64,000 nt of DNA, taken from an uncultured Actinomycetes bacterium (GTDB lineage: Bacteria > Actinomycetota > UBA4738 > HRBIN12). Position 1 is the first letter of the stretch; every line of letters starts with the position of its first letter. The notes below the pieces were generated by a model that did not search any database, was not told the DNA's origin, and saw only the letters and a program-made list of their open reading frames with translations. Made by a program: the position numbers and the translations under genes. Below are positions 13,945-19,884 of the stretch, one piece after another. Where the stretch lies: positions 704,001 through 768,000 of the forward strand of contig OY969934.1 in assembly GCA_963704725.1 (NCBI GenBank), in the 5' to 3' direction.

Positions 13945-14952
13945 GTGCGATTCGGCTACGGTCTGATCACCTGCCAGCGATACCCCGGCGACCCGCGGAC
14001 GGACGCGGATCTGTACCGGGAAGCTCTGGAGCTGGCGGAGGAAGTGGAGCGCTTGGGCTTCGACTCCGTGTGGACCAGCGAGCATCACTTCGCGGACGAC
14101 GCCTACGCACCCTCGCTGCTCACGCTCACGGCTGCCATCGCCGCCCGGACCCGTTCCATCCTGCTCGGGACGGGGCTGCTCCTGGCGCCGCTCTACCCGC
14201 CGCTTCGATTGGCGGAGGACGCAGCGGTGGTGGACCTGCTGTCCGAGGGGCGGTTCATCCTCGGCCTCGGACTCGGGTGGCTCGACTGGGAGTTCGACGC
14301 GCTCGGCGTTCCGTTCGGGGAGCGGGCGAGCCTGACCGAGGAGGCCATCAGGGTCTGCCGTCAGGGCTGGGGCGACGGGCTCGTCGAGGGCCCCGGCGTG
14401 GCGGTGCACCCCAAGCCGATGCGGCCGGGCGGGCCGCCCATCTGGTTGGGCGCCCACGCTGAGCGAGCCGTCCGCCGGGCCGCTCGGCTGGCCGACGGCT
14501 GGATGGCCGGGGAGCCCGACCTCGACGGATTCGCGCTCCGCTTGGCGTGGCTACGTGACGAGGCGACCCGGGCGGGACGTCGGGCCGATGCACTGGAGGT
14601 CGCCGGGTACTGGCCGGTATTCGTGTGGGAGGAGGGCGACGCCTGGGAGCGCGTGCGCCCGTACCACCACTACGTCGACTGGAGGTACGACGACGCCGAG
14701 GGAGCCCGCGGGCGCTTGGGCCCGATCCCGAGCCCGCCGCCGCTCGACGCGGAGAGCGAGGCCGCCCTCCGCGCGACGATGATCTGCGGGTCGCCCAACG
14801 AGGTGGTCGCGCGGATCGCCGAGTACGCCGAGGCGGCCGGACCCGGCTTCCACTTCGTGGCCCGTCTGTACTACCCGGGGATGGACCCAGCCACGATGCG
14901 CGAGTCCACGCGCTTGTTCGCCGAGAAGGTTATCCCGGCACTGCGCGGCTGA
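13945..14952 (+). CDS. LLM-class flavin/F420-dependent oxidoreductase
   Basis: GFDSVWTSEHHF, P.RLAED.A.VD.LSEGRFILGLG.G, PPIWLG, RAARLADGW. Confidence 0.88.
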   Translation: MRFGYGLITCQRYPGDPRTDADLYREALELAEEVERLGFDSVWTSEHHFADDAYAPSLLTLTAAIAARTRSILLGTGLLLAPLYPPLRLAEDAAVVDLLSEGRFILGLGLGWLDWEFDALGVPFGERASLTEEAIRVCRQGWGDGLVEGPGVAVHPKPMRPGGPPIWLGAHAERAVRRAARLADGWMAGEPDLDGFALRLAWLRDEATRAGRRADALEVAGYWPVFVWEEGDAWERVRPYHHYVDWRYDDAEGARGRLGPIPSPPPLDAESEAALRATMICGSPNEVVARIAEYAEAAGPGFHFVARLYYPGMDPATMRESTRLFAEKVIPALRG

Positions 14953-15063
14953 GCGGTCGGACCTCGCCCGGATCGGTCTCGGTTCGGCGGAGCTGGTGAC
15001 ACAGTCGGACCCCATCCCCCAGTAGGGCGCGGTCTTCACCCCCGGCCTGTACGTGGAGCCGAA

Positions 15064-15120
15064 GCCGCGGATCGAGATGGTGAGAGGTCTGGATGATGGC
15101 GGCCTCTCACGCCCCGGCGC
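15064..15120 (+). repeat. Cassette-boundary hairpin site 1 (attC-like)
   Basis: GTGAGAGG (15080-87) pairs with CCTCTCAC (15103-10); outer GCCGCGG/CCCCGGC; right arm ends CACGCCCCGGCGC. Confidence 0.6.
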
Positions 15121-15162
15121 CTGATCCCTCGCATCCCCGACTTCCCAACGCGACAATGGGGC

Positions 15163-15561
15163 ATGGTGACTCGCCGACTAGAAGTGGGCGACCGCGTGGT
15201 GGTCTATGGCGGCTACGATCCGGAGCCCGAGTGGCTGGTCGCGAACCCGGCTGGCTATGTTGGTCGCGTCGTTGAGTTCCTTCCCGGTCAGAACCTGAAC
15301 CTCGCGCCGCTGATCGAACTCGACGACCAGCTCGTGCTCCCCGCCGGAGCTGGGGCCGCGCGAGGAACGGAGGTTCGTGGGCTGTTCCTCGTCCTTGAGC
15401 TCGCGCATCGAGGCACAGACTGGTCCACCCCGACTCCCCGCATCCACGTGGAGCTCTGTGACTTCCGCCCCGAGCCCAAAGCGTGGCCAGATCGTCGCCA
15501 AGGCGCTCGGGTCGAGTCCCACGCGACTTACCGGGTGATCGGGACCGAGAAGGGCCGATAA
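15163..15561 (+). CDS. Hypothetical protein (putative cassette gene)
   Basis: 132-aa ORF with atypical codon usage, bounded by boundary motifs. Confidence 0.65.
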   Translation: MVTRRLEVGDRVVVYGGYDPEPEWLVANPAGYVGRVVEFLPGQNLNLAPLIELDDQLVLPAGAGAARGTEVRGLFLVLELAHRGTDWSTPTPRIHVELCDFRPEPKAWPDRRQGARVESHATYRVIGTEKGR

Positions 15562-15576
15562 GTACCCGCGCCCCGG
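15531..15576 (+). repeat. Cassette-boundary hairpin site 2 (attC-like)
   Basis: Left CCGGG-TGAT-CGGGAC pairs with right GTACCCGCGCCCCGG (13/15 to consensus). Confidence 0.6.
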
Positions 15577-15642
15577 GTGCGAGGCCCCGAGTAGGTATCT
15601 AGAGTCGTGCAGGCGCAGATGACGAGATGACTGGGGACGCAG

Positions 15643-15888
15643 GTGACCGACGAGCCTGAAGTGCTTGACGGACTGGAGGCCCAACGAAAGGCAGCCGGCT
15701 TGCAGGAGCTCGTGTCAAATGAGTACGACTGGACTGCGCTCTACCGCGATCCCGTTTCCGGAACGCTCTGGAAGGAGTCATACCCGTCGCCCGAAACACA
15801 CGGTGGGGGACCGCCTCGACTCGAGATGATCGATCGCCGTCGAGCCCTCTTGGAGTTCGACCTGACAGAGGGCGACCTGGACGAATGA
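15643..15888 (+). CDS. Imm27-like immunity protein
   Basis: W..LYRDP..G.LW...YP..E.HGGGPPRL signature as recalled for Imm27. Confidence 0.7.
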   Translation: MTDEPEVLDGLEAQRKAAGLQELVSNEYDWTALYRDPVSGTLWKESYPSPETHGGGPPRLEMIDRRRALLEFDLTEGDLDE

Positions 15889-15896
15889 GTGAGGTT

Positions 15897-15940
15897 CCGG
15901 GGGTTCGCGTGACGTCACAAATGTCCACGCGCCCCGGCGC
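15897..15940 (+). repeat. Cassette-boundary hairpin site 3 (attC-like)
   Basis: CCGGGG(gtt)CGCGT-GAC / GTC-[C]-ACGCG-CCCCGG; contains exact TGTCCACGCGCCCCGGCGC at 15922-15940. Confidence 0.75.
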
Positions 15941-15973
15941 ACGCAGCCGCAGACGCTGGACCCTATCCTCACG

Positions 15974-16369
15974 ATGATGACTTCAAGGCCGACCGACCGG
16001 CGGAATGTGACTTGGTTCATCGCCTGGATGCTCACGGGTGCCGGTTATGCCCTTGGAATCCTGGGCGCGCTCTCCATCGGTCCCTATGTCCTGGTCATCA
16101 CGGTGGCAGCCACCATCGTTCTTGCTACCCGCAGGGGATCCAAGGTGGGGCTACCCGGCCTGGTTTCCGGTCTCGGACTCCCACTGTTCTACGTTGCGTT
16201 CTTGAACCGATCAGGGCCTGGAACGGTCTGCACCTCTACCGGTACGAGCCAATCCTGCGTGGATGAATGGAGCCCATGGCCGTGGCTCGCGATCGGGATT
16301 GTGCTGCTGGTGAGCGGGTACGTGTGGTTCGCGAGGACCCACCGGCGTACAGGTGCCGCCGCCCCATGA
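15974..16369 (+). CDS. Hypothetical membrane protein (putative cassette gene)
   Basis: About four hydrophobic segments; loop GPG.VC.......C..WSPWPW. Confidence 0.7.
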   Translation: MMTSRPTDRRNVTWFIAWMLTGAGYALGILGALSIGPYVLVITVAATIVLATRRGSKVGLPGLVSGLGLPLFYVAFLNRSGPGTVCTSTGTSQSCVDEWSPWPWLAIGIVLLVSGYVWFARTHRRTGAAAP

Positions 16370-16402
16370 CCATGACGCTCTGGGTCACGGTGCTTGAATA
16401 GA

Positions 16403-16466
16403 CCCTGGGCTCTCGCGGGCATGTCCGAGAGACTGTCGGGCTCCAAGAACATTGCCCACGCTCGGG
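16403..16466 (+). repeat. Cassette-boundary hairpin site 4 (diverged)
   Basis: CGCGGGCATGT (16414-24) pairs with ACATTGCCCACG (16449-60); outer CCTGGG/CTCGGG. Confidence 0.45.
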
Positions 16467-16497
16467 CATCCCAGCGACCTCGACCTAGAGTTGAACT

Positions 16498-16752
16498 ATG
16501 TCTACGGACAGCTACGGCAACCAGATCGTTCGCTACACGGTCCGGATGCAGCTGGAACCTGAGGGCCGGATGGTCGAGTACAGGGCGGTCACCTCTCTCG
16601 GGGAGCTGAAGGCAGCGGCGATGGCGGCGTTGCGACTGCGGTCGGAGGACCCGGAAGCACGATTCGCGTCCATCGAGATCGTGAACACGGAGACCAAGTA
16701 CACGATCGATCCGGAGCGCGACTTGCTCGACTACTTGGGAGGCGTCGACTGA
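16498..16752 (+). CDS. Hypothetical protein (putative cassette gene)
   Basis: 84-aa ATG ORF between boundary motifs. Confidence 0.6.
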   Translation: MSTDSYGNQIVRYTVRMQLEPEGRMVEYRAVTSLGELKAAAMAALRLRSEDPEARFASIEIVNTETKYTIDPERDLLDYLGGVD

Positions 16753-16753
16753 C

Positions 16754-16776
16754 CCCTGACCCCCGGAGGGTCGGGG
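16754..16776 (+). terminator. GC-rich hairpin, possible terminator
   Basis: CCCTGACCC-ccgga-GGGTCGGGG directly after the stop; no U-tract. Confidence 0.35.
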
Positions 16777-16848
16777 TACATCGGCGAACGCTCGCGCACC
16801 ACGGCGTGCCCTTCCTGGACGGCTCGTAGTGTCCACGCGCCCCGGCGC
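16771..16848 (+). repeat. Cassette-boundary site 5
   Basis: Exact TGTCCACGCGCCCCGGCGC at 16830-16848, identical to site 3; left arm degenerate. Confidence 0.7.
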
Positions 16849-17026
16849 GGGAGGCTTCCACCGTCCCCGACTGACTTCTGGCTCGGTGTACGCAGATGAC
16901 GAGATGACGGCGGATCGAAAAGGTTGGGGATTCTGATGGTCCTGATCCCGAGGAGTCGCGTGGCCCCTGCATCGACCGGCCGCGCGGAGGAACAGTGGCA
17001 CCGGAACGGAGAGGAGATGAACATCC

Positions 17027-17788
17027 ATGCCGGTTCCTGATCCCTCATTCGGTTGGCAGGATGCCACCGCTGCCTTCGCCGTCGTCGCGGTCGTGGCGTT
17101 CCTGGTGACCTGGGTCGTGACGGACCTCGGTCACGTGTCGCGGACTCCCTACGTGGCGATCCTCACACTGACGACGCTCGCCCTTGCGGCTGGCTACCTC
17201 GCTTGGTCGGGCACGTCCGTGGCCGAGCTCGTAACGGCGGGGTGGGTCTGGGGCATCCTCGGGGGTCTGGTCGCAGCTGCGCTGGTCATTCCCCTGGTCC
17301 GTCGGCTGCCCTCAGGACCTCGCCCTGAAGGTTCTCAGCTCGTTGGACGGTTCCTCTGGGAAGGGGGCGTGTACGGCTTCGCGGAAGGAGTCCTACTCGC
17401 AACCCTGCCGGTCCTGGCTGTCTGGCAGGCAACCGACGCGCTCGGCTGGACGGATACCACATGGGCAAAGGTCGGCTCGGGCGCACTCGCGGCGGTCGGA
17501 GCGTTGTTCGTGATCTTGGTCCACCACCTCGGATACCGTGAGTTCCGGGCGAGGGCCGCAAGGAAGATGCTTCGGGGTGCGCTGGTTGCTTGCGGCATCC
17601 AGGCGTTGGCGTTCCTTCTGACGGGAAACGTGCTCGCTCCGGTCGTCGCCCACATCGTGCTCCACGGGGAGCTGACACTCCGCGGCATCGAGATGCCTCC
17701 CACGTCGCATCCGGAGCCGGTTTCCAGTGGCGCAGGCCGCGCGCGGGTCACCAAGGTCCCCGCACCGGAGAAGGAGTCAGTCGCGTAG
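17027..17788 (+). CDS. Multi-pass membrane protein, possibly CPBP-like (putative cassette gene)
   Basis: About seven hydrophobic segments, YGFAEG, HHLGY, AHIVLHG; GAGGAG upstream. Confidence 0.65.
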   Translation: MPVPDPSFGWQDATAAFAVVAVVAFLVTWVVTDLGHVSRTPYVAILTLTTLALAAGYLAWSGTSVAELVTAGWVWGILGGLVAAALVIPLVRRLPSGPRPEGSQLVGRFLWEGGVYGFAEGVLLATLPVLAVWQATDALGWTDTTWAKVGSGALAAVGALFVILVHHLGYREFRARAARKMLRGALVACGIQALAFLLTGNVLAPVVAHIVLHGELTLRGIEMPPTSHPEPVSSGAGRARVTKVPAPEKESVA

Positions 17789-17806
17789 GGAAGTCATAGA
17801 ACCCGC

Positions 17807-17844
17807 ATGCGTCAGTGGGTGAAACTCTGCACGCATCCCGGCGC
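17807..17844 (+). repeat. Cassette-boundary hairpin site 6 (attC-like)
   Basis: ATGCGT-CAG / CTG-[C]-ACGCAT-CCCGGCGC; 15/19 to consensus with compensatory changes. Confidence 0.7.
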
Positions 17845-17944
17845 CGTTGGCGGCGACGGAGGTATATGAACTGGTGTCGAAGATCACCTCGCCCTGGGTT
17901 GAAGGTCGAACGTTCGGCCCTGGAAGTACCGAGAGGAGAACACG

Positions 17945-18289
17945 GTGAGCAACGAACAGGCGGCACCTGAGACCAAGGGTGTTGCGGTGGAGTTCCTTGC
18001 AGCGGTTGACCTTGGGCCTGAGATCGAGGGCATGGCAGGGCGCCAACTTCGGATGCGTACGGTGACCATCGAGGCTGGAGGCGTCTTCGGCCCCATCCAC
18101 GACCATGAAGGCAGACCGGGCCTCGTCTACATTCTGCAGGGAACGATCACCGACCATCGAGATGGAGGCGCGACGGACTATGGGCCGGGAGTGGGCTGGC
18201 CCGAGGATAGGAACACCACACACTGGCTCGAGAACAGAGGAACGACTCCGGCGGTGGAGATCTCGGTCGACATCGTCGGGCAAGAGTGA
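17945..18289 (+). CDS. Cupin domain protein (putative cassette gene)
   Basis: HDHEGRPGLVYILQGTI, HWLENRG; GAGGAG RBS. Confidence 0.85.
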   Translation: MSNEQAAPETKGVAVEFLAAVDLGPEIEGMAGRQLRMRTVTIEAGGVFGPIHDHEGRPGLVYILQGTITDHRDGGATDYGPGVGWPEDRNTTHWLENRGTTPAVEISVDIVGQE

Positions 18290-18312
18290 GTGACGCGACC
18301 GGCACCCACAAC

Positions 18313-19884
18313 GTGAGCACGGACGAGGAAACGGGCGCGACGGCGGAGCGGTCCTCGGGCGTGCGGCTGTCAGAGCTCGTCGCCGTCATCTCGTTCTCCT
18401 CCGACTTCGGGCTCGGACAGCCGATGGAGCATGTCCTGCGCTCGTGCCTGATCGCGCTCCGCCTCGCGGATCGCCTCGGCGTCGACGAGGACGGGCGGCG
18501 CGAGATCTACTGGGTCACGCTCCTCGCCCTCGTGTGCACGGGCGAGTCCTTCGAGCTCGCGGGGGTGTTCGGCGACGACGTGGCCTTCCGAGCGGGCATG
18601 TACCACGTCGGGCCGTCGCAGCTCGCGCAGATGCTCTACGTGCTCCGGTCGGCGTCCCCACGCGTGCGAGGGGCCGCGGGGATCGCGTCGAGCGGCGGGC
18701 GGTCGGTCGAGTCGATGTTCCTCGCGCACTGCGCCGTCACGCGCGAGGTGGCGCGGCGTCTCGGGCTCGGCACAGGCGTCGCCGAGGCGCTCTCGCACAC
18801 GTTCGCCCGGTGGGACGGCAAGGGGCTCCCGCGCGGCGTGGTGCCCGAGGACGTGCCGATCTCCGCGCGGGTGATGCAGCTCGCGGACCTCGCCGAGGTC
18901 CATCACCGCCTGCGCGGGATCGAGGGCGCGCTCGAGATGGTGCGGTCGAGGGCGGGCAGGATGTTCCCGCCGGATCTGGCGCGGCGCTTCCTGGACGACG
19001 CGCCGGAGATCCTGGCGGACCTCGACGACTCGGCATGGGACCGCGTCGTGGCCGCCGAGCCGGACCCTCGTCCGCCGCTCACCGAGGACGGGTTCGACGA
19101 GGTGCTCGAGGTCATGGCCGACATCGCCGACCTGAAGTCGCCGTGGTTCGCCGGCCATTCGCGCGGGGTGTCCGACCTCGCCGCGCGCGCGGTGCGCGCC
19201 GCCGGGATGCCGGAGCCCGACGTCGTCACCGTTCGGCGCGCGGGTCTCCTCCACGACCTCGGCCGGACGGCGATCGCGAACAGCCTGTGGGACCGGCGCG
19301 AGGCGCTCACGGACGGCCAGCACGAGCGGATCCGTCTGCACGCGTACTACACCGAGCGCATGCTGCGGCGTCCCGCCGCGCTCGCCGGGCTCGCGGCGAT
19401 CGCGTCGTCGGATCACGAGCGGCTGGACGGGTCGGGCTACCACCGGGGCGCGCGCGGCGCGGACATCCCTCTGCTCGGCCGCTACCTGGCCGCCGCCGAC
19501 GTGTACCACGCGCTGCTCGAGGATCGCCCCCACCGGCACGCCCGCACACCGAAGGAGGCGGCCGCGCACGTGCGGAGCGAGGCCCGGGCGGGGCGGCTCG
19601 ACGGCGCCGCGGTGGACGTCGTCCTCGGGGCGGCCGGCCACCGGCGCACCGGAGCGTCGGCCGCCCCCGCCGGACTCACGGCCAGGGAGGTCGAGGTCCT
19701 CGTCCTCGTCGCGCGCGGGTCGACCACCCGCCAGGTCGCTCGGGCGCTCGGCATCGCGCCGAAGACCGCCGGCAACCACATCGAGCGGATCTACGCGAAG
19801 ATCGGCGCGTCGAGCCGGTCCACCGCGACGCTGTTCGCGATGCGCCACGGCATGCTCGCCACGCTCGAGCCCGTCCGTCCCTGA
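18313..19884 (+). CDS. HD-GYP-like domain + LuxR HTH regulator (alternative start 18286)
   Basis: GQPMEH.LRSC, RWDGKG, GHSRGV, LLHDLGR, HERLDGSGY, GLTAREVEVL...KT..NHIE.IY.K. Confidence 0.88.
   Translation: MSTDEETGATAERSSGVRLSELVAVISFSSDFGLGQPMEHVLRSCLIALRLADRLGVDEDGRREIYWVTLLALVCTGESFELAGVFGDDVAFRAGMYHVGPSQLAQMLYVLRSASPRVRGAAGIASSGGRSVESMFLAHCAVTREVARRLGLGTGVAEALSHTFARWDGKGLPRGVVPEDVPISARVMQLADLAEVHHRLRGIEGALEMVRSRAGRMFPPDLARRFLDDAPEILADLDDSAWDRVVAAEPDPRPPLTEDGFDEVLEVMADIADLKSPWFAGHSRGVSDLAARAVRAAGMPEPDVVTVRRAGLLHDLGRTAIANSLWDRREALTDGQHERIRLHAYYTERMLRRPAALAGLAAIASSDHERLDGSGYHRGARGADIPLLGRYLAAADVYHALLEDRPHRHARTPKEAAAHVRSEARAGRLDGAAVDVVLGAAGHRRTGASAAPAGLTAREVEVLVLVARGSTTRQVARALGIAPKTAGNHIERIYAKIGASSRSTATLFAMRHGMLATLEPVRP

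What the first reader, a model, noticed from the sequence alone, without database searches (positions are those of the whole stretch)
15064..18305. Integron-like gene-cassette array in a probable actinobacterium, delimited by a novel repeated site
Seen: six unrelated short genes, all on +, that look lower in GC than the flanks. Each gap carries a variant of TGTCCACGCGCCCCGGCGC: exact at 15922 and 16830, variants at 15103, 15562, 16453 and 17826, and a possible worn copy at 18290-18305 where host-like GC resumes. One site per gene, same orientation, each the right arm of an imperfect palindrome. Known: this is the layout of integron attC arrays, integrons are considered rare or absent in Actinomycetota, and canonical RYYYAAC/GTTRRRY boxes are missing here. 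Inference: an undescribed cassette-capture system, present as an array without a local integrase (CALIN-like).
Basis: partly seen in the sequence, partly recalled or inferred. Interest (0 to 1): 0.92.

Follow-up and report, generated by a model that had tools for sequence, protein, structure and literature searches.

The report
Integron-like gene cassettes in actinobacteria
Six small foreign genes here form one of many arrays of swappable single-gene cassettes, joined at a short conserved DNA site, that a family of uncultured soil actinobacteria share without the integrase that normally runs such systems.

Summary
The array is real, but only 5 of the 7 claimed sites hold (cores at 15108, 15567, 15928, 16836, 17832). 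The copies claimed at 16453 and 18290 do not hold, and neither does the "right arm of a hairpin" claim.

The site is about 30-40 bp with an almost invariant core, CGCGCCCCGGCG. In this 3.45 Mb genome it marks two low-GC islands only: this one, and a 6.5 kb insertion between asd and a GNAT gene that congeners lack.

One-stranded arrays occur across the GTDB family (exact 15-mer: 130 hits against 24 control hits in 223 genomes) and in 102 metagenome contigs.

Single cassettes are 97-98% identical between genera whose host genes differ far more, and similarity stops at the core. 91 of 196 internal similarity ends lie within 20 nt of a core, against 1.9% expected. The switch from left-linked to right-linked sequence falls inside the core.

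It is not an integron. There is no IntI (only XerC and XerD), no attC boxes and no consistent fold. The host dif site is unrelated, and no recombinase is linked to the arrays.

Best reading: an undescribed integron-like cassette system served in trans by an unidentified recombinase. The mechanism is inferred, not shown.

The parts
15045..15135 (+). Head of the array: site A1 (core 15108-15119, a CACGCCCCGGCG variant). It is of the 'first type', with a long distinct left arm (..GGATCGAGATGGTGAGAGGTCTGGATGATGGCGGCCTCT).
   Evidence: Window 15045-15120 recurs at 88-93% at three places in congener G009. The same type of left arm heads arrays in 9 loci. It scores 17.7 with the first matrix and under 12 with the independent one.
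15110..15576 (+). Cassette 1, with ORF 15163-15561 (132 aa, no family).
   Evidence: 98.3% identical over 467 nt to G009:C18:324891-325357. All four ends of the match lie within 4 nt of core centres and the neighbours differ on both sides. A metagenome contig, L385, matches at 90%. No Pfam, NCBIfam or PADLOC match.
15553..15594 (+). Site A2 (core 15567-15578, CGCGCCCCGGGT).
   Evidence: It is the right limit of the cassette 1 homology. First matrix 11.5, independent matrix under 12.
15643..15888 (+). Cassette 2 ORF (81 aa), an Imm27 immunity protein domain.
   Evidence: PF15590, E 3.4e-14.
15914..15955 (+). Site A3 (core 15928-15939).
   Evidence: Exact 19-mer. Independent matrix 35.8. Metagenome contigs of run X6 break exactly before 15928 and there read a first-type left arm.
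15926..16370 (+). Cassette 3, with ORF 15974-16369 (131 aa, membrane-like, no family).
   Evidence: 97.3% identical over 445 nt to G072 (another genus; L084 9236-9680). The left ends of the match lie 7 nt from the cores. Soil and sediment contigs carry it alone and leave the window's sequence after 16370.
16371..16497 (.). Junction without a recognisable site. The claimed variant at 16453 is only a small palindrome.
   Evidence: Best matrix score -13.8. Terminator-like 6-pair stem at 16453-16468 on the - strand.
16498..16752 (+). Cassette 4 ORF (84 aa, no family).
   Evidence: GC 0.624.
16822..16863 (+). Site A5 (core 16836-16847).
   Evidence: Exact 19-mer. Independent matrix 32.4.
16848..16928 (+). 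Probable stump of a lost cassette's 5' leader.
   Evidence: 16891-16914 repeats 15614-15637 of cassette 2's leader at 92%. In G009 and in contigs of run X1, cassette 5 starts about 25 nt after a core instead of about 85 nt.
16929..17806 (+). Cassette 5, with ORF 17027-17788 (253 aa, membrane protein, no family).
   Evidence: 94.5% identical over 878 nt to G009:C18:134379-135256, a different place in that genome. Homologues at 68-81% DNA identity in 5 more relatives.
17818..17859 (+). Site A6 (core 17832-17843, CGCATCCCGGCG).
   Evidence: Independent matrix 16.3. Member of direct-repeat family D2.
17945..18289 (+). Cassette 6 ORF (114 aa, cupin). It is the last unit and has no site after it.
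   Evidence: PF07883, E 6.8e-10. GC 0.626, GC3 0.704. Contigs of three runs carry it in other contexts and break at 17912 and at 18287-18289. One X5 contig then reads a core-like GCGCCCACGCGCC.
18286..18305 (+). Right border: start of the host-GC HD-domain/LuxR gene (18286-19884), overlapping the cupin stop codon. This is not a site.
   Evidence: Matrix score -28.9. Gene GC 0.745, GC3 0.944. The first 8-13 residues have no counterpart in the closest orthologue.

Best explanation
Window ~15.05-18.29 kb is one of two arrays in this genome of horizontally acquired, mostly single-gene cassettes. Across 195 site-to-site spacings from all loci the median is 762 nt.

The cassettes are joined head to tail at a ~30-40 bp site. 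It has a variable A-rich left arm (..AAC.TG[TC]CA or GTCCA), an almost invariant core CGCGCCCCGGCG, and a right arm (CG.G.GGCC).

Each junction is a hybrid. Sequence up to about core position 8 travels with the upstream cassette, and sequence from about position 9-13 travels with the downstream one.

I infer that cassettes are cut out and inserted by conservative site-specific recombination inside the core. Arrays appear to grow from a distinct 'head' site, an analogue of attI. The recombinase would act in trans: it is neither an integron integrase nor encoded beside the arrays. The result works like a sedentary chromosomal integron, as a store of accessory genes exchanged between genera of one uncultured family of Actinomycetota.

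Shown: the anatomy, the distribution, the exchange between genera and the position of the breakpoints.
Inferred: the enzymatic mechanism, the circular intermediate and the role of the head site.
For: 1. Restricted to islands, not scattered. 8 of 9 matrix hits in the genome lie in two low-GC islands, against 0 in the reversed genome. The independent matrix puts 7 of its 8 hits at 16 or more in the same islands.

2. The second island is an insertion. In 6 of 9 congener loci, asd is followed directly by a convergent GNAT gene. Here 6.5 kb carrying 4 sites lies between them.

3. Arrays are family-wide.
- The exact 15-mer gave 130 hits in 70 of 223 genomes, against 24 control hits (totals added by me).
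- There are up to 13 one-stranded sites in one array.
- Of 102 metagenome contigs, 62 have at least 2 sites, and in 60 of those 62 all sites lie on one strand.

4. Exchange between genera, on long contigs.
- G000 and G072: 97.3%.
- G018 and G226: 97.8%.
- G168 and G172: 97.8%.
- G168 and G107: 96.4%.
- For comparison, asd proteins within the genus are only 81-87% identical, and a host block between G009 and G072 is 82.5% identical.

5. Breakpoints at the core.
- 91 of 196 internal similarity ends lie within 20 nt of a core centre in at least one locus, and 65 in both. 1.9% of positions would do so by chance.
- In 29 pairs with the same left but different right flank, identity is 0.97-1.0 at core positions 1-8, is 0.59 at position 9 and 0.90-0.97 at the near-invariant positions 10-12, and falls to 0.66 at position 13 and 0.34 or less at 14-17.
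- In 23 pairs with the same right but different left flank, it is 0.83 at position 9 and 1.0 at positions 10-15.

6. Metagenome contigs carry cassettes 3, 5 and 6 singly. They break at 15928, 16929 and 18287-18289.

7. From established knowledge (recalled, not tested here): the shared tract of about 12-18 bp is below the roughly 25 bp that RecA-dependent exchange needs to be efficient.

8. The cargo resembles that of chromosomal integrons: Imm27, cupin, GNAT, glyoxalase, SnoaL, DinB, RibD_C, APH, methyltransferases, tautomerase.
Against: - No recombinase was found.
  - Five array-bearing genomes (G000, G007, G018, G146, G072) hold only two PF00589 genes each, both Xer-like.
  - G018 and G007 also have no PF00239 match.
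  - 395 kb of metagenome array contigs hold one tyrosine recombinase ORF and no serine recombinase ORF.
- No circular cassette or excision junction was seen. No public run holds more than 0.14 of the stretch, and only contigs could be laid on it.
- Breakpoints confined to the core would also follow from any exchange that needs homology, because the core is the only sequence the cassettes share.
- The three insertion/deletion differences between collinear contigs that I read base by base were not bounded by cores on both sides. One looked like a deletion at a GTGC microhomology.
- Several junctions in this window have lost their site (16370, 16929, 18289).
- The counts include related contigs and are not independent events.
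- The metagenome contigs were selected by a pattern that fixes the left arm.
Confidence: 0.6

Rival explanations
1. There is no dedicated recombinase. The site is a conserved punctuation element of accessory genes, such as an insulator, a terminator or a protein-binding palindrome. Cassettes are reshuffled and imported by short-homology or illegitimate recombination at these repeats after transformation or conjugation.
For: No linked or shared recombinase was found. The core is the only shared homology, so breakpoints there are expected. The three indels I inspected were not core-to-core, and one lay at a microhomology. Several junctions have decayed.
Against: The identical tract is only about 12-18 bp. 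The sites keep one polarity within arrays in 60 of 62 contigs, which homology alone does not enforce. The hairpin is not consistently stable as RNA (1 of 5 with z under -2) or as DNA. No U-tract terminators lie at the sites. The motif is absent from the ends of ordinary genes. The left arm has lineage-specific flavours, which suggests a co-evolving reader protein.
Confidence: 0.2
2. The host XerC/XerD pair moves the cassettes, as in Acinetobacter pdif modules or dif-integrating elements (IMEX).
For: XerC and XerD are the only tyrosine recombinases in five array-bearing genomes. They are universally present, which would explain arrays without a local integrase.
Against: The genome's dif candidate (AACGCCGAGAATGTACGTTATGGAAAGT at 1,991,507) is the only hit with up to 8 mismatches to the Frankia dif. 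It sits at the GC-skew maximum and has nothing in common with the cassette site. Sites lie in direct orientation, not alternating as in pdif modules.
Confidence: 0.07
3. A large serine recombinase supplied in trans by an integrative element moves the cassettes. This is a special case of the best explanation that names the enzyme class.
For: The site has two short inverted arms (CGCGCC / GGCGCG) around a non-palindromic central CC, and the left/right switch maps at about core positions 8-9. That fits exchange at a central dinucleotide. The genome has six such recombinases. Three sit in copies of an element with a Replic_Relax gene, and upstream of that gene lies a CGCGCCAGGGCGCG palindrome.
Against: G018 (96% complete) and G007 (95%) carry arrays but have no PF00239 match. 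No serine recombinase ORF occurs in the 102 array contigs. The palindrome in the element is of a kind I estimate by hand to occur by chance a dozen times in a genome of this GC. The matrix scores it at only about 12, where the control also has hits.
Confidence: 0.1
4. It is a true integron remnant: a CALIN, a cluster of attC sites whose integrase was lost.
For: The layout is an array of small, unrelated, co-oriented genes with low GC and no integrase.
Against: No IntI: the best integron-integrase model score is 125-139 bits against a cut-off of 265. No R''/R' boxes. No consistent imperfect hairpin. The exchange point lies in the middle of a 12-bp core, not at a GTT triplet. IntegronFinder surveys report no complete integron in Actinobacteria (passages of PMC9024848 and PMC4889954).
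Confidence: 0.03

Closest known systems
Sedentary chromosomal integrons and CALINs (IntI / attI / attC)
   Same: One-stranded arrays of short, mostly single-gene units of foreign composition. One recombination-type site per unit. The same unit is found between different neighbours in different taxa, with breakpoints at the site. A distinct site type stands at the head of arrays. The cargo is small accessory and immunity-type genes. Many arrays have no integrase nearby.
   Different: No IntI anywhere in the genome. The site is a short core of double-stranded type rather than a 57-141 nt folded attC. There are no R/L boxes and no extrahelical-base hairpin. The exchange point is central, so each junction is half from each cassette. 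Some cassettes carry genes on the opposite strand, so they probably have their own promoters (not tested). The host phylum is one where complete integrons have not been reported.
Xer-dependent modules (Acinetobacter pdif modules; IMEX arrays at dif)
   Same: Gene modules bounded by short recombinase core sites and moved by a recombinase encoded elsewhere in the host. Tandem accretion is possible.
   Different: The site is unrelated to this genome's dif. Sites lie in direct rather than alternating orientation. Arrays sit at ordinary chromosomal places far from the terminus (0.30 and 0.72 Mb, against the terminus at 1.99 Mb).
REP/BIME repeats with RAYT transposases
   Same: GC-rich palindromic extragenic repeats that follow genes.
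   Different: About 9 copies in two islands rather than hundreds genome-wide. No RAYT gene (0 of 5 genomes). No stable hairpin. The repeats delimit exchangeable genes.
Tandem accretion of integrative elements at tRNA or att sites (tyrosine integrases, large serine integrases)
   Same: Repeated hybrid att-like junctions in one orientation. One array in G009 abuts a tyrosine integrase and a tRNA-Ala gene.
   Different: The units are 0.3-1.5 kb, with one gene and no integrase of their own. 19 of 20 other loci with that integrase family have no site. Arrays occur in genomes without such integrases.

Membership tests
Integron | Integron integrase IntI (a tyrosine recombinase with the IntI-specific extra domain), normally next to the array | tested here: not met
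   The whole genome has 2 PF00589 genes. They are XerD (347 bits, cut-off 329.6) and an XerC-like gene (305 bits; it passes NF001399). The integron-integrase model scores 125-139 bits against a cut-off of 265. The G009 integrase beside one array scores 69 bits.
Integron | attC sites with inverse core RYYYAAC and core GTTRRRY | tested here: not met
   3 GTTRRRY and 1 RYYYAAC in 14953-18320. No pair lies 40-160 nt apart and none is at a gene boundary.
Integron | attC folds as an imperfect hairpin on one strand | tested here: not met
   9 sites folded as DNA gave z from -1.70 to +1.05. Outer arms of 241 junctions were no more complementary than random pairs.
Integron | Score above threshold with IntegronFinder's attC covariance model | not testable with these tools
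   The model is not available here, and Rfam 15 has no match in 14500-18800.
Integron | Cassettes are mobile units: the same cassette in different arrays with limits at the site | tested here: met
Integron | Promoterless cassettes expressed from a common Pc promoter | not tested
   No RNA data. TANNNT-like hexamers just upstream of three start codons, and opposite-strand genes in some relatives' cassettes, were seen by eye only. The sigma-70 scan found 0 sites.
CALIN | At least two attC sites without an integrase nearby | tested here: not met
   There is no integrase nearby, but the sites are not attC.
Xer/dif modules (pdif, IMEX) | Site resembles the host dif (11-6-11 with ATAA/TTAT-type inner arms) | tested here: not met
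   The dif candidate at 1,991,507 is unlike the core. No ATAA-N6-TTAT anywhere in the genome.
Xer/dif modules (pdif, IMEX) | XerC and XerD present | tested here: met
REP/BIME | Many copies dispersed between genes genome-wide, with a RAYT gene | tested here: not met
   9 hits, 8 of them in two islands. PF01797 in 0 of 5 genomes.
Intrinsic terminator | Stable GC-rich hairpin followed by a U-tract | tested here: not met
   No terminator-like site at any of the 5 cores. Folded as RNA, 1 of 5 had z under -2.
Large serine integrase att site | Imperfect inverted repeat of about 40-50 bp around a central dinucleotide where exchange occurs, with a cognate serine integrase in the genome | tested here: inconclusive
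   The short inverted arms and the exchange point at about positions 8-9 fit. Six such genes are present here, but none in array-bearing G018 and G007.

The most novel reading that the evidence does not exclude
A second, independently evolved gene-capture platform of the integron type, native to an uncultured class-level lineage of Actinomycetota. It would use a 12-bp-core recombination site with central strand exchange and a head site, and a recombinase that is not IntI, is not linked to the arrays and may belong to no recognised site-specific recombinase family. It would fill the long-noted absence of integrons from this phylum.
Probability: 0.4. Interest if true: 0.92.

Novelty: new variant of a known kind. 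Interest (0 to 1): 0.85.

Why it matters
Integrons are the textbook system for capturing and shuffling single genes. Surveys keep finding them missing from Actinomycetota without a known reason (passages of PMC9024848 and PMC4889954).

If these arrays are what they look like, a soil actinobacterial family has a functional equivalent built from different parts. That would show that cassette capture evolved more than once. It would expose a pool of exchangeable genes in soil and peat metagenomes that attC-based tools cannot see. It would also point to an unknown recombinase with a compact site, which could be useful as a genetic tool for high-GC bacteria.

The question is directly testable, because the site, the cassettes and the candidate enzymes are now defined.

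Tried and rejected
- **Xer hypothesis.** I found dif with the Frankia sequence quoted in PMC3025954. It is unlike the site.
- **RAYT/REP.** No PF01797 in 5 genomes.
- **The tyrosine integrase beside the G009 array as the cassette enzyme.**
  - Homologues occur in 53 of 223 family genomes, with no systematic adjacency.
  - Only 1 of the 20 fetched homologue loci has a site.
  - No tRNA-derived repeat delimits an island there.
- **A conserved gene upstream of array heads.** None found. The unbiased clustering of flanking ORFs found only cargo families, with cyclase-domain proteins the commonest.
- **Retracted reading.** I first took window 15026-15124 for the stump of a hydrolase-cyclase gene. 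On re-reading, the conserved stretch is the intergenic left extension of the head site.
- **L052 5448-6710.** A 420-aa ORF that looked like a candidate gene is a low-complexity antisense frame with no relatives.
- **Genome hit at 602,089.** It lies inside a high-GC coding region and is probably chance.
- **Empty-site comparison for this window's array.** It failed. The flanking LLM oxidoreductase and HD/LuxR genes have no syntenic orthologues in the 13 congeners.
- **Genome-contig scans.** The 22-mer found nothing.
- **Viral contigs.** 73 loci, no arrays.
- **Plasmid and phage collections.** No match.
- **Rfam.** Nothing.
- **PADLOC and the protein atlas on cassette proteins.** Nothing useful.
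- **Automatic search for core-to-core insertions and deletions.** 0 events with my first criteria. The three cases I then read by eye were not core-to-core.
- **Reads.**
  - No run holds half of the stretch, and only contigs could be laid on it, so excision or circles could not be looked for.
  - Parts of the stretch without cover mean nothing.
  - The single joint 16809>15923 (one contig, 39 letters on the shorter side, 90% likeness) is only a weak hint of another cassette order.
- **My GC3-based ORF picker.** It is unreliable inside the low-GC cassettes, where it chose antisense frames. Statements on gene orientation in relatives' cassettes are therefore provisional.
  - Supplements of the IntegronFinder papers, which may list the few actinobacterial CALINs, could not be seen.

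**Papers.** For PMC9024848, PMC4889954 and PMC3025954 I saw passages only (find mode). All other papers I saw only as search listings. That the system is not in print rests on searches only.

**Unpublished genomes.**
- G011 (L055) gave 3 sites to both matrices and one head-site example.
- G172 (L085) gave two head-site examples and the 97.8% cassette shared with L083.
- G011, G029, G037, G044, G086, G087, G153, G172, G174 and G225 are counted in the tallies.
- No conclusion depends on them alone.

Full report
**1. What is in the window**

Between a host-like F420/LLM oxidoreductase gene (13945-14952) and an HD-domain/LuxR gene (18286-19884) lie six + strand ORFs of 132, 81, 131, 84, 253 and 114 aa.
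- Their GC is 0.61-0.67 and GC3 0.68-0.85. The two flanking genes have GC 0.72-0.745 and GC3 0.90-0.94. The array as a whole is 0.647 against flanks of 0.724 and 0.732.
- Two ORFs have families: Imm27 (15643-15888) and cupin (17945-18289). The others match nothing in Pfam, NCBIfam or PADLOC.
- The organism is an actinobacterium. It has three WhiB genes, a family that rang in only Corynebacterium among 14 control genomes. It has a Frankia-like dif. Two public records that carry array-type sites are titled 'uncultured Actinomycetes bacterium'.
- Its GTDB class, as held here, consists of one order with eight families.

**2. The repeated site**

- The 19-mer is exact at 15922 and 16830 and occurs nowhere else in the 3.45 Mb genome.
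- Aligning sites from this and related genomes shows an almost invariant core, CGCGCCCCGGCG. The left arm is variable and A-rich, ending in CA (GTCCA here; AAC.TG[TC]CA in other lineages). The right arm is looser (CG.G.GGCC).
- A weight matrix built only from 71 sites of other genomes scores the cores at 15928, 16836 and 17832 at 35.8, 32.4 and 16.3. The places claimed at 16453 and 18290 score -13.8 and -28.9.
- The cores at 15108 and 15567 are weak by that matrix. They are confirmed by homology (section 4).
- So there are five sites, all on the + strand, for six genes.
- The idea that each site is the right arm of a longer hairpin fails.
  - Nine sites of this genome folded as DNA gave z-scores from -1.70 to +1.05.
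  - Five folded as RNA gave one z below -2.
  - In 241 distinct junctions the outer arms were no more complementary than random pairings.
- There are no attC boxes, no Rfam family and no terminator-like site at any core.

**3. Where else the site occurs**

In this genome:
- The matrix finds 9 places at 17 or more, against 0 in the reversed genome. Five are here and four at 304.2-309.6 kb. The ninth, at 602,089, lies inside a high-GC coding region.
- The second locus is also low in GC. It starts right after the asd stop codon.
- In 6 of 9 congener loci, asd is followed at once by a convergent GNAT gene. I dropped a tenth locus, L074, because the gene ends at the contig edge. In this genome 6.5 kb lies between the two genes. 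It holds the four sites, small ORFs, an APH-like gene and nested IS3-like and IS30-like transposase genes inside one cassette.

In relatives:
- One-stranded arrays of 3 to 13 sites occur in many genera of the family.
- The exact 15-mer CACGCGCCCCGGCGC gave 130 hits in 70 of 223 family genomes, against 24 hits for the reversed control (totals added by me).
- In the seven other families of the class, 7 of 43 genomes had hits. Six had single hits. One had two hits 18 kb apart on opposite strands. None was an array.
- A metagenome scan with a left-arm-plus-core pattern returned 102 contigs (395 kb). 100 of them hold a site by the matrix, 62 hold at least two, and in 60 of those 62 all sites are on one strand.
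- The median distance between neighbouring sites is 762 nt (interquartile range 550-1256, n = 195).
- Scans of viral contigs, phages and plasmids found no arrays.
- The site is therefore neither a genome-wide REP nor a general terminator.

**4. Evidence that the units move**

- Cassette 1 (window 15110-15576) is 98.3% identical to G009:C18:324891-325357. There it sits between other neighbours, and all four ends of the match lie within 4 nt of core centres.
- Cassette 3 is 97.3% identical to a unit in G072, a different genus, on a 1.14 Mb contig. The left ends of the match are at the cores.
- Cassette 5 is 94.5% identical to a unit elsewhere in G009.
- Other pairs link G018 with G226 (97.8%), G168 with G172 (97.8%; G172 is unpublished) and G168 with G107 (96.4%).
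- By contrast, asd proteins within the genus are 81-87% identical, and a host block between G009 and G072 is 82.5% identical. The cassettes were therefore exchanged recently between genera.
- Over 124 loci there were 154 matches of at least 200 nt and 90% identity, with 196 ends internal to both sequences.
  - 91 ends lay within 20 nt of a core centre in at least one locus, and 65 in both. 1.9% of positions would do so by chance.
  - 144 of the 196 lay within 50 nt.
  - These counts include related contigs and overstate the number of independent events.
- Contigs of four soil, peat and sediment runs carry cassettes 3, 5 and 6 singly.
  - They leave the window's sequence at 15928, 16370, 16929, 17790, 17912 and 18287-18289.
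  - Before 15928, contigs of one run read a head-type left arm.
  - After the cupin stop codon, one contig reads a core-like sequence.

**5. Where the exchange happens**

- Among 260 distinct junctions, 29 pairs share the left flank but not the right, and 23 pairs share the right but not the left.
- In same-left pairs, identity is 0.97-1.0 at core positions 1-8, 0.59 at position 9 (the one common polymorphism, G/A) and 0.90-0.97 at positions 10-12. It falls to 0.66 at position 13 and 0.34 or less at positions 14-17.
- In same-right pairs, identity is 0.83 at position 9 and 1.0 at positions 10-15, and drops on the left.
- Each junction is therefore half from each cassette, and the switch lies within CGCGCCCC|G.
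- This differs from attC, where almost the whole site belongs to one cassette.

**6. Head sites**

- A subclass of sites has a different and longer left arm (..GGATCGAG.TGG...TGA[CT]GGCGGC[CG][TG]C).
- It is the most upstream recognisable site in 9 arrays: this window, L052, L055, L057 at 17111, L083, L084, L085 at 1381, L088 and L089.
- It is internal in 2 arrays and stands alone in 3 loci.
- I read it as an analogue of attI. That is an inference.
- What lies upstream differs from array to array. In three genera it is an alpha/beta-hydrolase-guanylate-cyclase gene. Cyclase-domain proteins are also the commonest family in and around arrays generally.

**7. The missing enzyme**

- This genome has only two tyrosine recombinases. 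One is XerD and one is XerC-like. Neither reaches the integron-integrase cut-off.
- It has six large serine recombinases far from the arrays.
- G007, G018, G146 and G072 also carry arrays with only the Xer pair. G018 and G007 have no serine recombinase at all.
- The dif candidate sits at the GC-skew maximum and is unrelated to the site.
- There is no RAYT gene.
- One G009 array abuts a generic tyrosine integrase and a tRNA-Ala gene. Homologues of that integrase are not otherwise linked to sites: 1 of 20 loci.
- The 102 metagenome contigs hold one tyrosine recombinase ORF and no serine recombinase ORF.
- Flanks of two long arrays hold only metabolic genes.
- One weak lead remains. Three copies of an integrative element (a Replic_Relax gene plus a large serine recombinase gene) carry a CGCGCCAGGGCGCG palindrome upstream of the Replic_Relax gene.

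**8. Reading**

The anatomy and the comparative evidence fit a cassette system that works like an integron but fails every structural membership test for one.
- I commit to conservative site-specific recombination within the core by an unlinked enzyme acting in trans (0.6).
- The main rival is exchange that needs no dedicated enzyme, at a conserved punctuation element (0.2). It is kept alive by three things: no recombinase was found, the three insertion/deletion differences I read were not core-to-core, and any homology-dependent process would also break at the core.
- Against that rival stand the strict polarity of arrays, the very short shared tract, the lack of a stable fold, and the lineage-specific left arms.

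**9. Novelty**

- IntegronFinder surveys report no complete integron in Actinobacteria (passages of PMC9024848 and PMC4889954).
- Four full-text searches found no description of such arrays.
- Supplementary tables, which may list the few actinobacterial CALINs, could not be read.
- I file it as a new variant of a known kind (gene-cassette arrays). There is a substantial chance that it is a separate invention with a new enzyme.

Noticed in passing
L001 6238-12758 (G000:C1:304238-310758): A second cassette array of this genome, a 6.5 kb insertion between asd and a convergent GNAT gene. One cassette is split by nested insertion sequences: an IS3-like pair (HTH_Tnp_1 + rve) is interrupted by an IS30-like gene (HTH_38 + rve), which is itself interrupted by another IS3-like element.
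   Followed up: yes
G000:C1:1991507-1991534 (outside the window): Candidate chromosomal dif site, AACGCCGAGAATGTACGTTATGGAAAGT. It has 6 mismatches to the Frankia alni dif and is the only hit with up to 8 mismatches. It sits at the cumulative GC-skew maximum (~1.99 Mb), and xerD lies about 20 kb away.
   Followed up: partly
L416 1305-4200 and L417 (G000:C1 ~2.38 Mb and ~0.99 Mb; a third copy near 1.92 Mb): A repeated integrative element with a Replic_Relax gene followed by a large serine recombinase gene. The two aligned copies are identical over roughly 500 columns. The region upstream of the Replic_Relax gene holds CCCACGCGCCG and a CGCGCCAGGGCGCG palindrome that resemble the cassette core.
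   Followed up: partly
L050 9500-10864 (G009:C18): A generic tyrosine integrase (348 aa) and a tRNA-Ala gene lie directly after the last site of a cassette array, convergent with it. No tRNA-derived repeat was found that would delimit an island.
   Followed up: partly
window 18286-19884: The best match of the HD-domain/LuxR gene (76% identity) is in a genome of another family (G036), while congeners reach only 43-45%. The gene family has about 29 matches in this genome. Its first 8-13 residues, which overlap the cupin gene's end, have no counterpart in the orthologue.
   Followed up: no
window 15614-15637 and 16891-16914: A 24-nt repeat (CGCAGATGACGAGATGAC..., 92%) lies about 50 nt after two different sites. 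The second copy looks like the stump of a lost cassette's leader, now fused to cassette 5.
   Followed up: partly
L057, L053, L091, L082, L083, L081 (relatives' arrays): Alpha/beta-hydrolase-guanylate-cyclase fusion genes and other cyclase-domain genes are the commonest gene family in and around arrays (36 ORFs in 22 loci). In three genera such a gene directly precedes or lies near the array head. A cNMP-binding protein gene faces the head of the 13-site array in L089.
   Followed up: partly
G000:C1:602076-602101 (outside the window): A near-perfect palindrome, GGCGGCCTCGCGCGCCCCGGCGCGCGAGGCC, inside a high-GC coding region. It scores as a head-type site and is probably chance.
   Followed up: partly
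L052 1301-5012 versus L084 11641-15366: The same host gene block (82.5% identical) borders arrays in G009 and G072, but the array's polarity relative to the block is opposite in the two genomes.
   Followed up: no
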